DNA from: Eledone cirrhosa
Lineage: Eukaryota
Direction of reading: 5' to 3'
DNA length: 64,000 nt
Assembly: GCA_964016885.1 (NCBI GenBank)
Contig: OZ024766.1
Location: 15,748,001-15,812,000, forward strand
Shown: positions 13,449 through 56,822 of the stretch, one piece after another
How the letters are laid out: each line of letters starts with the position of its first letter
Numbering within the stretch: position 1 is the first letter of the stretch
Notes under the pieces: generated by a model
The model's database searches: none
Told to the model about the DNA's origin: nothing
Seen by the model: the letters and a program-made list of their open reading frames with translations, nothing else
Position numbers and translations under genes: made by a program

Positions 13449-14558
13449 ATGGAAAATAAATTGAGTGAAAAGAAGATTAAATGTGAAACAATGACTAAAG
13501 ATATGGCTATTACAGAAGAGATGTCAAAGGATAGAGGAGAGAAGCCATATCACTGTGATGTGTGTGGTAAATCATTCTCTGTTAGTAGTAAATTAACAAG
13601 TCACAAACGTACACATCCGGGAGAGAAGCCATACCACTGTGATATCTGTGGTAAATCATTCTCTCAAAGTAGTAATTTAACTAGCCACATGCGTATACAT
13701 ACAGGTGACGAACCACATCACTGTGATATCTGTGGTAAATCATTCTCTCGAAGTAGTATATTAACTAGCCACATGCGTATACATACAGGTGAGAAACCAT
13801 ATCACTGTGATATCTGTGGTAAATCATTCTCTGAAAGTGGTCACTTAACTAGCCACAAACGTATACATACAAGAGAGAAGCCATATCACTGTGATATCTG
13901 TGGTAAATCATATTCTCAGAGTAATGCCTTAACAAGCCACAAACGTATACATACAGGAGAGAAGCCATATCACTGTGATATCTGTGGTAAATCATTCTCT
14001 GAAAGTGGTAACTTAACTAGCCACAAACGTATACATACAGGAGACAAGCCATATCACTGTGATATCTGTGGTCAATCATTCTCTCGAAGTGGTACCTTAA
14101 CTAGCCACAAACGTATACATACAGGAGAGAAGCCATACCACTGTGATATCTGTGGTAAATCATTCTATGATAGTAGTACCTTAACTAGCCACAAACGTAT
14201 ACATACAGGAGAGAAGCCATATCACTGTGATATCTGTGGTAAATCATTCTTTGAAAATAGTAAATTAACTAGTCACAAACGTACACATACGGGAGAGAAG
14301 CCATATCACTGTGATATCTGTGGTAAATCATTCTCTGAAAGTGGTACCTTAACTAGCCACAAACGTATCCATACAGGAGAGAAGCCATATCGCTGTGATA
14401 TCTGTGGTAAATCATTCTCTCAAAGTAGTAACTTAACTAGCCACAAACTTATACATACAGGAGACAAGCCATACCACTGTGATATTTGTGGTAAATCATT
14501 CTGTCAATTAAGTAGTTTAACTAAACACAAATATACCCATACAGGTAAGAAACCATAA
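13449..14558 (+). CDS. C2H2 zinc-finger protein 1, 369 aa, 12 tandem fingers
   Basis: Intact ORF; 33-aa leader then 12 x 28-aa [12 protein letters not shown]...HTGEKP. Confidence 0.93.
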
Positions 14559-15075
14559 CAAAGTCATATCTCATTGTCTCAAAATTGTAAATTAATTTGA
14601 CACAAATACATTCATATGAGTGAGAAGCTATACCACCGTGATATTGTGGAGAAATTATTCTCTTGTATTGCTACATTAACTACATACAAACATAAATATC
14701 TACTGAAGAAAAGCCATATCACTGTGATATCTGTGGAAATTGTTATCTATAAAAGCTAGCTTAACTAGACACAAACATATATATACAGGAGAGAAACTAT
14801 ATCACTGTGATATCTGTGGGAAATCATTCTCTGAAATAAGTCACTTCACTCAGCACTAACATTTACAGAAAAGGAACCATATCATTGTGATATCTGCAGT
14901 AAATCATTCTCTAAATGTGGCTTCACTAGACACTAACATATACAGGAGAGGAACTATATCACTGTGATGTCTGGTAAATCCTTCTCTAAATGTTGAGAAT
15001 TCCCTACACACTAACATATACAGGAGAGGAACCATATCACTGTGTTGTCTGTGGTAAATCATTTTCTAAATGTTG
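14559..15075 (+). pseudogene. ~6 decayed zinc-finger relics in the 3' UTR (equivalents 23142-23740, 56823-57340; shortened at ~41450-41565)
   Basis: Recurrent CCATATCACTGTGATATCTGTGG / ACATATACAGGAGAG.AACC motifs with stops and indels. Confidence 0.85.
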
Positions 15076-15178
15076 TGGTACCAACATAAGGTTACTTAAT
15101 GTAACAGAAACACAATCAGACAAGATAAAAACCATATCACTCACCCAAAATAGTGCCACCAATGTTGTTAATGTTTTG

Positions 15179-15184
15179 AATAAA
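15179..15184 (+). terminator. Candidate polyadenylation signal AATAAA (also 23843, 41665, 57445)
   Basis: Conserved in all four genes, followed by T/GT-rich sequence. Confidence 0.5.
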
Positions 15185-52310: not shown

Positions 52311-55300
52311 GAAAAGCAAAGTTAATCTCTCAGAGGTTAGCTTTGCCTTTCATCCCTACGGGGTCGATAAAATAAAGTACCAGTAATATACTAGGGTAAT
52401 TGCTGGCCTTGTGCCAAAAGTAGAAACAATTATCACATTTCTTTTTAATAAATCACATCACTATAGAATTAAATACGACTGGAAATGTGTGTGAAAGTAC
52501 AAAATTATGTCAGGGACTTTTCACGTTTGACACCGAACGAGAGTCGAAACATTCGCTAAGACACCGAGTACCTGCTGTCTTCGTTATAACTTTAATTAAT
52601 CTAATTATATCTTGTGTAACAATTATATATATATACACACACAATTTTAATTCCCGGACATCAGTCTTACACTGTCATATCTATTCTTACTTTACAATTG
52701 TGTCTACTAAGAGTTCCATTACAATCTGTAGTAGTAAGACTACTATTTCACCAGAACATCTGCTATCAGCCATTTATAGACAATATATATATTTTAGACC
52801 ACATATCAACCTAACATATATATATTTCTATCAAATCTGTAGCTAAAGACATAAAGTCAGCCTCACTACTTCATTCTAACAAGATATCAATTTATGACTA
52901 AAGATGAAGAAGATACACCAACGTTAATGTCGTGAAATAAAGCTGATAACATTGAAACTTCTAATTTGATAACAACGAGATTATTTCTTTGGTTGTTTAG
53001 TAACAACTAACAACACAATACATTGATTATATATGAAGGAGGTAAGTTGACAAAGATTTACTTAATGTCTATATTAATGTGTGTAAATAATATAATTATG
53101 TGACCCCTACAACGCACCAGTAATTAACCAGATTCCACTGTTAAATGTGATATAAAATATATTGTTATGACTGTCTTTATTATTTAAATTACCTCCGTCT
53201 ATTTAATTATCTAGTTCACTACCTTACATTATAAAATATAGTTTATATTTAGCTGTACCTTGTTATTGTTTTAAGTAAATTAAAAATATATTTATTATTT
53301 AAATTACCCCCGTCAATTTAATTATCTTGTTCACTACCTTACATTATAAAATATAGTTTATATTTAGCTGTACCTTGTTATTGCTTTAAGTAAGTGAAAG
53401 ATATATTTATTATTCAAATTACCTCCGTCTATTTAATTATGTGGTTCACTACCTTACATAATGTAATTTATATTTAACTGTACCTTGTTATTGCTTGAAG
53501 TAAGTTAAATATATATTTATTATTTAAATTACCTCCGTCTATTTAATTATCTTGTTCACTACCTTACATTATAAAATATAGTTTATATTTATCTGTACCT
53601 TGTCATTGCTTTAAGTAAATTAAAGATATATTTATTATTTAAATTACCTCCGTCTATTTAATTATGTGGTTCACTACCTTACATTATAAAATATAGTTTA
53701 TATTTAGCTGTACCTTGTTATTGTTTTAAGTAAATTAATATTTTGTCTGTTTTAGTCTAAATCTCTTACAATTTAATTAACTTCATCTACTTATGGTTGA
53801 ACATTACTTTATTGTGGGTTTCATTTCATTATAATTATGTCTGATTAGCCAGCCAAGTAGGGGTTGCGTATCTGTATTTCAGGGAACTGCTTTGATGGTG
53901 AAGGGACATCTGTTGGTGTGGGATCTCGGTGGCTGTACATAATAAGGTTCTAATACTCTAAAGAGCTAGCTGAATAACCGTCTGATACATGTCTTGTATA
54001 GAGGATCATAAAGCCATGTATAGAAGAGCAGTCAGCAATGTCAGGATTAACATTCATTATAGTGAAGTGGCAGTATCGGTAGAGAGTCGGACACCATGCT
54101 TTGAGGCACAGAGTTACGTCCCTTTATGATCTGAGTTCAAATCCCGCCGAGGTTAACTTTGCCTTACATCCATACGGGGTCGATAAAGTAAAGTACCAGT
54201 AATGTACTGGGTAATTGCTGGCCTTGTGTTTAAAATAGAAACAATTATAGTGAATAATTTGGAGTGTAGTCTGGTGTCCACCAGGGCTCTGTTCTTAGCC
54301 CTCACTTAGTTATTATCGTCCTGCAGCCTATAACAGAGATGTTTAAGACTGGCTGCCCATGGTAACTCCTGTATGCTCAGCGGGTCCTGAAGAATGCGGT
54401 CATGTGCATTTTCCAGGTCTATAAAACGATAATATATACCTCTTAGCAATACTCCCACGATTTCTCAAAGAGCTGCCACAGTGTGAATATTTGGTGGGTT
54501 ATGTTGCACCCAGGGAGCAAACAGCACTGTCCATCAGCTAGCTTCGACTCGCTACATCACTTTGCCAGAAACTTTGCATATACTTTACCAGGTAGTCATA
54601 ACAAGGTGATCCCTCTCTATTTGGAACAATCTCTCGTGTGTCCCTTTTTATAAATTGGGATTATCACTCCCGATTGCCTTTGCTTGAGTGCCATTTCAGA
54701 GACCCAGGCCATCTGACACACGAGTCGGTCACATTTGAGCTCTTTAATTGCTCTTGTGACCTCAGCCTCCGAGAGATTAGTCACCGCTATCAGATTCACC
54801 TCATGTACATCCGAAGATGCTGTTGTGATCGGGTTTGGGAGATCAGCAAAGTATTCTCTCCACCTCATGAGGATCCATCTCTCTGAAGAGAAAAGAACCC
54901 CAGATACACTCATGGTTGCAGGTGTGGAGAAAGATTTCTTGTAACTAATTAAAAACTAAAATAATTTGACTTTTCAATAAAAAGTTTCCAGGGTTTATAG
55001 ATGTAAAATTTCCACTGTTAAATCTATCTCTGCTTCTTAAGTATTCTCTATTGTTTCATACTGTTTCTTTTTCATTTCAGAATATCAGATGACATTAGGA
55101 TAAATTATTTTTTTCGATCTTGGATACATCACCTCTATTTATCATCATTTGAAGATTAAAACTTTTTAAACAGAACTTATATAACACTGTTTATATAAAT
55201 CTATCAGAATTACTGTGATATATTTCCTCAGAACTGAGTTTAAAGACAAAATTCCTTTTCTTCACTGTGTTGTATATATATGAGAGATATATCTTGTATT

Positions 55301-55460
55301 TTAACTCAGCTTCAATGACAAAGAAGTTTGCATCATCTTCAGGTATTAACTGAGATCATAATTGAGGGAAATATAACAAAAATAATATTTTTTACGAATA
55401 TAATATAAAAAATATTAAAGAATAACATCTGTAAATTCTGCCAAAGGAAGAAGAATTATT

Positions 55461-56822
55461 ATGGAAAATAAATTGAGGGAAAAGAAGATTAAATGTGAAA
55501 CAATGTCTAAAGATATGGCTATTACAGAAGAGATGTCAAAGGATAGAGGAGAGAAGCCATATCACTGTGATATTTGTGGTAAATCATTCTCTGAAAGTGG
55601 TAACTTAACTAGACACAAACGTATACATACAGAAGAGAAACCATATCACTGTGATATCTGTGGTAAATCATTCTTTGTTAATGGTAATTTAACAAGCCAC
55701 AAACGTACACATACAGGAGAGAAGCCATATCACTGTGATATCTGTGGTAAATCATTCTCTCGAAGTAGTAATTTAACTAGCCACATGCGTATACATACAG
55801 GTGAGAAGCCATATCACTGTGATATCTGTGGTAAATCATTCTTTGTTAATAGTAAATTAACTAGACACAAACGTACACATACAGGAGACAAGCCATATCA
55901 CTGTGATATCTGTGGTAAATCATTCTCTCTAAGTAGTATATTAACTTGTCACATCCGTACCCATACAGGTGACAAGCAATATCACTGTGATATCTGTGGT
56001 AAATCATTCTCTGAAAGTGGTAACTTAACTAGACACAAGCGTATCCATACAGGAGAGAAGCCATATCACTGTGATATCTGTGGTAAATCATTCTCTTTTA
56101 GTAGTAATATAAATTCTCACATACGTACTCATACAGGAGAGAAGCCATATCACTGTGATATCTGTGGTAAATCATTCTTTAATAATATTAGTTTAACTAG
56201 ACACGAACGTACCCATTCAGGAGAGAAGCCATATCACTGTGATATCTGTGGTAAATCATTCTTTGTTAATAGTAATTTAACTAGACACAAAAGTATACAT
56301 ACAGGAGAGAAGCCATATTACTGTGATATCTGTGGTAAATCATTCTCTGAAAGTGGTACCTTAACTAGCCACAAACGTATACATACAGGAGACAAGCCAT
56401 ATCACTGTGATATCTGTGGTAAATCATTCTCTCGAAGAAGTTACTTAACTGAGCACTTACGTATCCATACAGGTGAGAAGCCATATCACTGTGATATCTG
56501 TAGTAAATCATTCTCTGATAGTGGTACCTTAACTAGCCACATACGTATACATACAGGAGAGAAGCCATATCACTGTGATATCTGTAGTAAATCATTCTCT
56601 GAAAGTGGTACCTTAACTAGACACAAACGTATCCATACAGGAGAGAAGCCACATCACTGTGATATCTGTGGTAAATCATTCTCTGAAAGTGGTACCTTAA
56701 CTAGACACAAACGTATCCATACAGGAGAGAAGCCATACCACTGTGATATCTGTGGTATATCATTCTCTCAATTAAGTAGTTTAACTAAACACAAATATAC
56801 CCATACAGGTAAGAAACCATAA
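55461..56822 (+). CDS. C2H2 zinc-finger protein 4, 453 aa, 15 tandem fingers
   Basis: Intact ORF; same leader and terminal finger as genes 1 and 2. Confidence 0.94.

What the first reader, a model, noticed from the sequence alone, without database searches (positions are those of the whole stretch)
13449..56822. PRDM9-like finger arrays: homogenised scaffold, hypervariable helices, shuffled order
Seen: scaffold DNA (CCATATCACTGTGATATCTGTGGTAAATCATTC) is almost invariant even at synonymous sites across 59 fingers, while the helix residues vary widely. Finger counts are 12/19/13/15 and the arrays are not collinear although the flanks are close. Blocks move: gene 2 fingers 14-17 ([28 protein letters not shown]) correspond to gene 4 fingers 4-7 (VNSKLTR, LSSILTC, ESGNLTR, FSSNINS); RRSYLT is finger 18 in gene 2 and 11 in gene 4; near-identical pairs occur within genes (gene 2 F2/F4; gene 4 F1/F6, F13/F14). 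Inference: concerted minisatellite-like evolution plus diversifying selection on DNA contacts.
Basis: partly seen in the sequence, partly recalled or inferred. Interest (0 to 1): 0.7.

Follow-up and report, generated by a model that had tools for sequence, protein, structure and literature searches.

The report
Octopod zinc-finger cluster shuffling its fingers
These four genes are part of a run of 95 young copies of a zinc-finger gene, likely from an octopod, whose DNA-reading finger units occur in different numbers and orders from copy to copy, most likely through recombination between copies; this resembles the recombination gene PRDM9 and young mouse zinc-finger clusters, but PRDM9's enzyme part was not found here and what the proteins bind is untested.

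Summary
Observation largely confirmed. Four finger-only C2H2 genes carry 12/19/13/15 fingers. They are the first four of 95 tandem copies over 1.08 Mb in a likely octopod genome. Flanks differ by 2-3%, fingers by 15.5%, equally within and between genes: young genes, an older shared finger pool. Collinearity is lost by about 1% flank divergence; finger indels, internal duplications, mosaic arrays (14 of 58) and recombination inside the 84-bp unit are seen. 'Scaffold almost invariant' holds only for its 5' half. Selection is only partly shown: recent changes give dN/dS 0.8-0.9 at contacts against 0.47 elsewhere (above scaffold, not above 1), but standing diversity at contact sites is about four times that at fourfold sites (0.46 vs 0.12), which points to long-term retention of variants. 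Not PRDM9: no PR/SET match on this contig, and the contact-diversity share (median 0.415) lies between ordinary ZNFs (0.26) and this genome's SET-linked array (0.50). Closest known: coleoid C2H2 expansions and young mouse KZFP clusters. The scan noted the same pattern before on another piece of this genome (e1-9557371). New member of a known kind, unusually well suited to measuring finger turnover.

The parts
10700..11170 (+). Gene 1 probable non-coding first exon (start approximate), ending at a GTAAGT donor
   Evidence: Donor read from sequence; joint 11168->12950 (GT..AG with cut +2) in run X5 only, 24 letters on the short side, below the tool's 31-letter bridging bar; a 28-mer of this exon has 302 exact matches genome-wide, so the joint is not specific to this cluster
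11171..12951 (+). Gene 1 probable intron (holds a 115-bp tandem repeat)
   Evidence: GT..AG ends and polypyrimidine tract; donor motif at 92 and acceptor motif at 97 places in the cluster
13449..14558 (+). Gene 1 (z01) CDS: 32-aa leader + 12 C2H2 fingers (array 13545-14552), ending in the QLSSLTK terminal finger
   Evidence: leader has no Pfam match at E<=1
14556..15073 (+). Degenerate finger-derived units behind the stop of gene 1 (also 23139-23737, 56820-57339)
21444..23141 (+). Gene 2 (z02) CDS: leader + 19 fingers (array from 21540)
   Evidence: F9-19 shared with the z58 family, whose first four fingers match z38
39918..41117 (+). Gene 3 (z03) CDS: leader + 13 intact fingers, truncated by a 2-base deletion in finger 14
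   Evidence: same truncation in z07 and z62
41106..41560 (+). Broken finger units behind the gene 3 frameshift, with in-frame stops
55461..56822 (+). Gene 4 (z04) CDS: leader + 15 fingers (array from 55557)
   Evidence: collinear family z39, z40, z09, z33, z51
26013..36165 (.). 82-bp satellite array, part of the duplicated units (others 9388-9952, 16609-18072, 45015-47603, 49944-51902, 60477-62760)
   Evidence: 3,334 BLAST-matched units, about 25% of the cluster, none found outside 15.757-16.843 Mb within the 1.264 Mb read
9028..64000 (+). Tandem segmental units (satellite + exon 1 + intron + ZNF exon + 3' flank), 90-97% alike; a fifth unit starts near 60120 and its gene lies past the window end

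Best explanation
The four genes belong to a 95-copy tandem cluster of finger-only C2H2 genes in a likely octopod genome, and their arrays are built from one shared pool of 84-base finger units that is most likely reshuffled by unequal crossing-over and conversion within and between copies, while selection keeps the finger scaffold intact and probably preserves variety at the DNA-contact positions. Shown: copy number, shared pool, finger indels, internal duplications, mosaics, recombination inside the unit, purifying selection off the contacts, excess standing diversity at contacts. Inferred: the recombination mechanism and long-term diversifying selection. Untested: that the proteins are made and bind DNA; the most likely role, by analogy with published ZNF families, is a fast-turning repertoire of sequence-specific binders of young repeats or transposons, working without an attached KRAB- or SET-type domain.
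For: 95 leader matches in 1.264 Mb read, 52 on + then 43 on -; 1,440 canonical fingers, 446 unique non-terminal. Flanks 1.9-3.1% vs fingers 15.5% apart; within = between genes. Median share of collinear fingers 1.0 at <0.3% flank divergence, 0.67 at 0.3-0.6%, 0.18 at 0.6-1%, 0.05 at 1-2%, 0 beyond. 8 whole-finger indel events on 5 of 38 closest gene pairs, over which flanks differ by 0.2%. 31 of 58 unique complete arrays hold an internal near-identical pair, 10 a block of 2 or more; 14 of 58 are mosaics of unrelated donors; 5' and 3' flank distances only weakly linked (Mantel r 0.17, 48 genes). 248 of 310 site pairs inside the unit show all four gametes; r2 falls from 0.10 to 0.01 with distance. 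Terminal finger type only ever last (68 of 68). Non-contact dN/dS 0.47 (p=0.002), 29 changes vs 65 expected from flanks (p=4e-7); 76 of 95 ORFs reach the terminal finger; 6 broken ligands among 453 unique in-frame units. Heterozygosity 0.46 at contact codon positions 1-2 vs 0.12 at 10 three/fourfold sites (Mann-Whitney p=4e-4; neutral simulation P 0.0003-0.01); contact variants enriched at frequency >=1% (39 of 56 vs 32 of 86 synonymous, p=3e-4) while the recent contact rate is only 1.36 x the flank rate (p=0.15), so local hypermutation does not explain it.
Against: Recent dN/dS at contacts is 0.90 (single-base changes: 15 N vs 31 S, p=0.88) or 0.82, not above 1. Pairwise contact dN over contact-codon dS is 1.06 (0.77-1.35). 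The >=5% version of the frequency test is not significant (p=0.08). Synonymous sites change at 0.58 x the flank rate (12 vs 20.5, p=0.03), so the neutral yardstick may be too low. Sites and fingers are not independent; the rare class is near saturation. 19 of 95 copies are truncated. 21 spanning-tree pairs have identical arrays, some with 0 flank differences, so part of the copy number could be assembly duplication. No binding or protein evidence.
Confidence: 0.72

Rival explanations
1. Same shuffling, but contact positions are merely unconstrained: the cluster is a largely neutral, satellite-driven amplification in which old helix variants persist because diverged helices resist conversion.
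For: Recent contact dN/dS 0.82-0.90; synonymous diversity is also raised in contact codons -1, +3, +6; a quarter of the cluster is satellite; 19 of 95 copies truncated.
Against: Neutral contacts should match fourfold sites in heterozygosity but are about four times higher; recombination inside the unit is frequent, so helices are not insulated; scaffold is under purifying selection.
Confidence: 0.2
2. The genes are PRDM9 paralogues or partners that steer meiotic recombination hotspots.
For: Single-exon array, 90% identity between fingers with contacts masked, contact share 0.415, above 95th percentile of 120 database ZNFs in 72 of 73 arrays.
Against: None of 14 PR-domain matches lies on C27; SET-bearing queries hit control loci at E 1e-21 to 1e-9 but do not appear among the top 20 cluster hits, which are finger-like matches at E >= 1e-7; leader is 32 aa without a domain; the spliced leader holds only short uORFs; a separate SET-linked array with 36 canonical fingers exists on C22 with a stronger signal (0.503).
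Confidence: 0.03
3. The shuffling is an assembly artefact of a repetitive region.
For: Identical arrays in 21 tree-adjacent pairs; several with 0 of 1,804 flank differences.
Against: The four window genes differ by 1.9-3.1% in flanks; collinearity decays smoothly with flank divergence; no N inside the cluster (one 200-N run at 15.707 Mb, outside it); changes respect frame and codon constraint.
Confidence: 0.05

Closest known systems
Coleoid C2H2 zinc-finger expansions (PMC9068888, PMC9795677, PMC12513265; passages read)
   Same: Large clustered, lineage-specific C2H2 families in octopods; a single-copy gene of this genome has its best hits in Octopus vulgaris (69%) and Argonauta (50%).
   Different: The passages read deal with counts, trees, chromosomes and expression; PMC12513265 has 0 occurrences of 'conversion', 'positive selection' or 'array'. 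Finger-level turnover is not treated there. Clade placement of this family was not tested.
Young mouse KRAB-ZFP clusters (PMC5363842 section 7 and passages; PMC12575710 passages)
   Same: Segmental duplication of multi-gene blocks, 38-47 distinct fingerprint arrays per cluster, duplications and deletions of fingers, runs of 2-7 fingers repeated within genes, flanks more conserved than arrays.
   Different: No KRAB or other effector domain here; satellite rather than ERV fills the units; fingers here are shown to be one pool equally shared within and between genes.
PRDM9 zinc-finger minisatellite (PMC5519329 passages and section 10 part 1)
   Same: 84-bp units, high identity between fingers, diversity concentrated at -1, +2, +3, +6, conversion and duplication of units.
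   Different: No PR/SET, KRAB or SSXRD; 95 genes instead of one; homogenisation across genes rather than within; contact share 0.34-0.47 vs 0.687 (human) and 0.910 (mouse) in that table (their position set was not stated in what I read).
Metazoan ZNF-transposon coevolution, zebrafish FiNZ-ZNFs (PMC10547256 sections 6, 7 and passages)
   Same: Young paralogue clades; base-contacting residues most variable, octopus included; predicted octopus ZNF motifs enriched in TE consensus sequences.
   Different: FiNZ genes have an N-terminal domain and tested TE repression; selection was tested in zebrafish only; no finger-shuffling analysis in the sections read.

Membership tests
PRDM9 | PR/SET methyltransferase domain upstream of the array | tested here: not met
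   0 of 14 PF21549 matches on C27; tblastn control positive at SET loci, no SET hit among the top 20 cluster hits
PRDM9 | KRAB and SSXRD domains | tested here: not met
   32-aa leaders of genes 1 and 2 have no Pfam match at E<=1; in-frame stop just before the leader; spliced leader has only short uORFs
PRDM9 | Single-exon tandem array of 84-bp C2H2 units | tested here: met
PRDM9 | Amino-acid diversity concentrated at contact residues, top rank among the species' ZNFs | tested here: inconclusive
   Median 0.415 (73 arrays) vs 0.503 for the SET-linked C22 array, 0.27-0.41 for 5 arrays at other loci, 0.267 for the cluster-edge gene, 0.258 median for 120 database proteins; no genome-wide ranking possible
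PRDM9 | Meiotic expression and hotspot marking | not testable with these tools
   no meiotic data
KRAB zinc-finger proteins | N-terminal KRAB domain | tested here: not met
KRAB zinc-finger proteins | Young clusters with segmental duplication and finger gain, loss and shuffling (works-like feature) | tested here: met
KRAB zinc-finger proteins | Binding and repression of transposons | not testable with these tools
   no motif predictor or TE library on hand
Coleoid C2H2 ZNF expansion | Coleoid (octopod) genome | tested here: met
   named hits of a single-copy PRDM15-like gene are Octopus vulgaris and Argonauta hians, 2 of 4 hits named
Coleoid C2H2 ZNF expansion | Tandemly clustered multi-finger C2H2 genes | tested here: met
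   95 copies in 1.08 Mb; related genes on C8, C10, C12, C18
Coleoid C2H2 ZNF expansion | Placement in a published octopus-specific clade; neural expression | not tested
   two protein searches returned no octopus ZNF (120 listed of 346; none)

The most novel reading that the evidence does not exclude
The whole 1-Mb cluster behaves as one distributed coding minisatellite: about 1,400 fingers in 95 effector-less genes recombine with each other, down to parts of a finger, so that new DNA-binding specificities arise faster than flanking DNA gains 1% divergence, and selection keeps the contact repertoire broad. That would be a combinatorial, PRDM9-style diversifier serving an octopod genome-defence or neural regulatory system without KRAB.
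Probability: 0.35. Interest if true: 0.65.

Novelty: new member of a known kind. Interest (0 to 1): 0.4.

Why it matters
Octopod genomes carry over a thousand C2H2 genes whose way of diversifying is little studied. This cluster gives a clean clock: arrays are scrambled by the time flanks differ by about 1%, with whole-finger gains and losses on 5 of the 38 youngest gene pairs. It makes two open questions testable in an invertebrate: whether ZNF repertoires are renewed mainly by recombination rather than point mutation, and whether effector-less ZNFs chase young transposons. The phenomenon itself has precedents in mouse KZFP clusters and PRDM9.

Tried and rejected
Whole-protein homologue search was swamped by vertebrate ZNFs and gave no taxon; the leader region found no candidate; taxon came from another gene. 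Sequencing-run search: no RNA holder listed; contigs of X1-X5 could not rank expression or calibrate copy number. Tree-based codon models were not run: four-gamete counts and PMC5519329 say no single tree relates the fingers. 25 of 94 spanning-tree edges were dropped as non-collinear before the recent dN/dS count, and 44 of 136 unique finger changes with more than one base were left out of the single-base count; 10 of 58 genes lacked the 3' anchor for the Mantel test; 22 of 95 copies (repeats of an array or under 4 fingers) were left out of the contact-share statistic. A young fold-back palindrome at the strand switch (16.39-16.40 Mb) was not seen: inverted matches are 77-95% unit homology. 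15 of 20 other loci carrying the shared first exon showed no ZNF ORF within 10 kb on that strand (one was read on an unconfirmed strand), so sharing of that exon by ZNF genes is shown for 5 only. The 2015 octopus genome paper is not held; my recollection that it links C2H2 clusters to 70-90-bp tandem repeats is unverified (one search found nothing). No supplements were read; those of PMC10547256 (octopus entropy, motif-TE matches) and PMC5519329 may bear on novelty.
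Full report
Observation. Six-frame scanning finds four long + strand ORFs with 12, 19, 13 and 15 canonical C2H2 fingers, each a 32-aa leader plus an 84-bp array. The quoted 33-base scaffold matches 48 of 59 units with at most one mismatch. Diversity peaks at helix positions -1, +2, +3, +6 (pN 0.47 vs 0.088 elsewhere). Synonymous invariance is regional: pS 0.095 in codons 1-11, 0.30 in codons 20-28. 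The 5' flanks differ by only 1.9-3.1% with an unresolved, interleaved signal (7/4/2 informative sites), while fingers differ by 15.6% within and 15.5% between genes. So the fingers are older than the gene copies. The quoted block (g2 F14-17 vs g4 F4-7) differs by 7, 3, 8, 0 bases against a background median of 13. Gene 3 is truncated by a 2-base deletion.

Context. Each gene sits in a duplicated unit with 82-, 77- and 115-bp tandem repeats. The window is G000:C27:15,748,001-15,812,000. Tiling 1.264 Mb gave 95 copies from 15.76 to 16.84 Mb, 52 on + then 43 on -, with 1,440 canonical fingers; 76 of 95 ORFs reach the shared terminal finger, a type found only in last place (68 of 68). A single-copy gene elsewhere in the genome has its named hits in Octopus vulgaris (69%) and Argonauta, so the host is likely an octopod.

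Gene anatomy. Sequence shows a GTAAGT donor after 11170 and a polypyrimidine-AG acceptor before 12952, conserved at 92 and 97 places in the cluster. One run of unrecorded type (X5) has a joint at exactly these sites, absent from X1-X4; the short side is 24 letters, and the first exon is shared with at least 302 genomic places, so this is a hint of splicing, not proof of expression of this cluster. The spliced leader has 9 upstream ATGs and only short ORFs; the protein leader has no Pfam match. No PR/SET match lies on C27 (0 of 14). The proteins are thus predicted to be fingers only.

Shuffling. Among gene pairs, the median share of collinear fingers is 1.0 below 0.3% flank divergence, 0.67 at 0.3-0.6%, 0.18 at 0.6-1% and 0 above 2%; above 1% array cost no longer tracks flank distance (rho 0.02). 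On the 38 closest tree edges (flank 137 differences in 68,380 sites) there are 8 whole-finger indel events on 5 edges. Of 58 unique complete arrays, 31 hold an internal near-identical pair, 10 an internal block, and 14 are mosaics of unrelated donors; 11 gene pairs are near-identical at one flank and over 1.5% apart at the other, against 26 near-identical at both. Inside the unit, 248 of 310 site pairs show four gametes and r2 decays with distance (rho -0.31). Unequal crossing-over and conversion are the inferred causes; the exact mix is not resolved.

Selection. On 69 of 94 tree edges (993 aligned finger pairs, 136 unique changes), single-base changes give dN/dS 0.90 at contacts and 0.47 elsewhere; contacts exceed the rest (p=0.04) but not neutrality (p=0.88). 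Against flanks: contacts 15 vs 11.1 expected (p=0.15), other sites 29 vs 65.2 (p=4e-7), synonymous 12 vs 20.5 (p=0.03). Standing diversity among 446 unique non-terminal fingers tells more: 0.46 at first and second positions of contact codons vs 0.12 at three/fourfold sites (p=4e-4), and contact variants are enriched at frequency >=1% (p=3e-4; at >=5%, p=0.08). A simple neutral model reaches such a mean over four codons with P 0.0003-0.01. In the window alone contact dN is 3.2 x whole-unit dS but 1.06 x its own codons' dS. Reading: purifying selection on the scaffold is shown; long-term retention of contact variants is likely; a burst of recent positive selection is not shown.

How PRDM9-like. 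The contact-share statistic of PMC5519329 (their position set not stated in what I read) gives a median of 0.415 for 73 arrays (0.330 with three positions), 0.503 for a PR/SET-linked array of 36 canonical fingers on C22 (KRAB and SSXRD not checked), 0.267 for the divergent gene at the cluster edge, and 0.258 for 120 database proteins, mostly vertebrate and selected by similarity. Five related arrays on C8, C10, C12 and C18 give 0.27-0.41, so the pattern is a property of this octopod family, strongest here.

Comparison with print. Coleoid C2H2 expansions and clusters are known (PMC9068888; PMC9795677; PMC12513265; passages only). Variable contact residues and predicted TE binding in octopus ZNFs are reported (PMC10547256). 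Finger duplication, deletion and block repetition in young clusters are reported for mouse KZFPs (PMC5363842; PMC12575710). Searches for a cephalopod finger-shuffling study listed none, but the library lacks most subscription papers and I read no supplements. The scan itself noted the same pattern on another piece of this genome (e1-9557371); that is a lead, not support.

Verdict. Function is untested; TE or repeat binding is the most likely role by analogy. Interest 0.4.

Noticed in passing
window 10700-11200; G000 C5, C8-C12, C14, C16-C18 and more: The probable non-coding first exon is 88-97% conserved at 20 of 20 other loci checked and a 28-mer of it has 302 exact matches; 5 of 20 have a ZNF array within 10 kb. 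It holds a 13-codon uORF. May be a shared promoter and 5' exon module of the family.
   Followed up: partly
window 41916-43125 (ORF 41864-42739): An insertion in the 3' flank of unit 3 only, with a PHD-finger match; it looks like the 3' end of a LINE (resemblance recalled, not tested).
   Followed up: partly
window 47604-49943: A partial unit without a ZNF gene, 97.4% alike to 58131-60476, consistent with a deletion or unequal exchange.
   Followed up: no
G000:C27 16,388,168-16,402,769: The cluster switches strand once (52 genes +, then 43 -), tail to tail; no young palindrome at the switch.
   Followed up: partly
L104 (G000:C27 16,846,852-16,849,389, -): A divergent 19-finger gene just past the cluster end with an N-terminal coding tandem repeat of about 29 residues and ordinary finger diversity.
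   Followed up: no
L122 (G000:C22 from 11,549,628): PR/SET exon followed by a 1,164-codon open frame with 36 canonical fingers, 92% identical to each other: probable PRDM9, used as control.
   Followed up: partly
window 3587-8048: A 22-bp satellite of about 204 copies just left of the first unit, at the cluster edge.
   Followed up: no
window 15943-16172, 24623-24846, 43634-43844, 47672-47901, 58198-58425: A roughly 225-bp self-complementary element in the 3' flank of the units, possibly a MITE.
   Followed up: no
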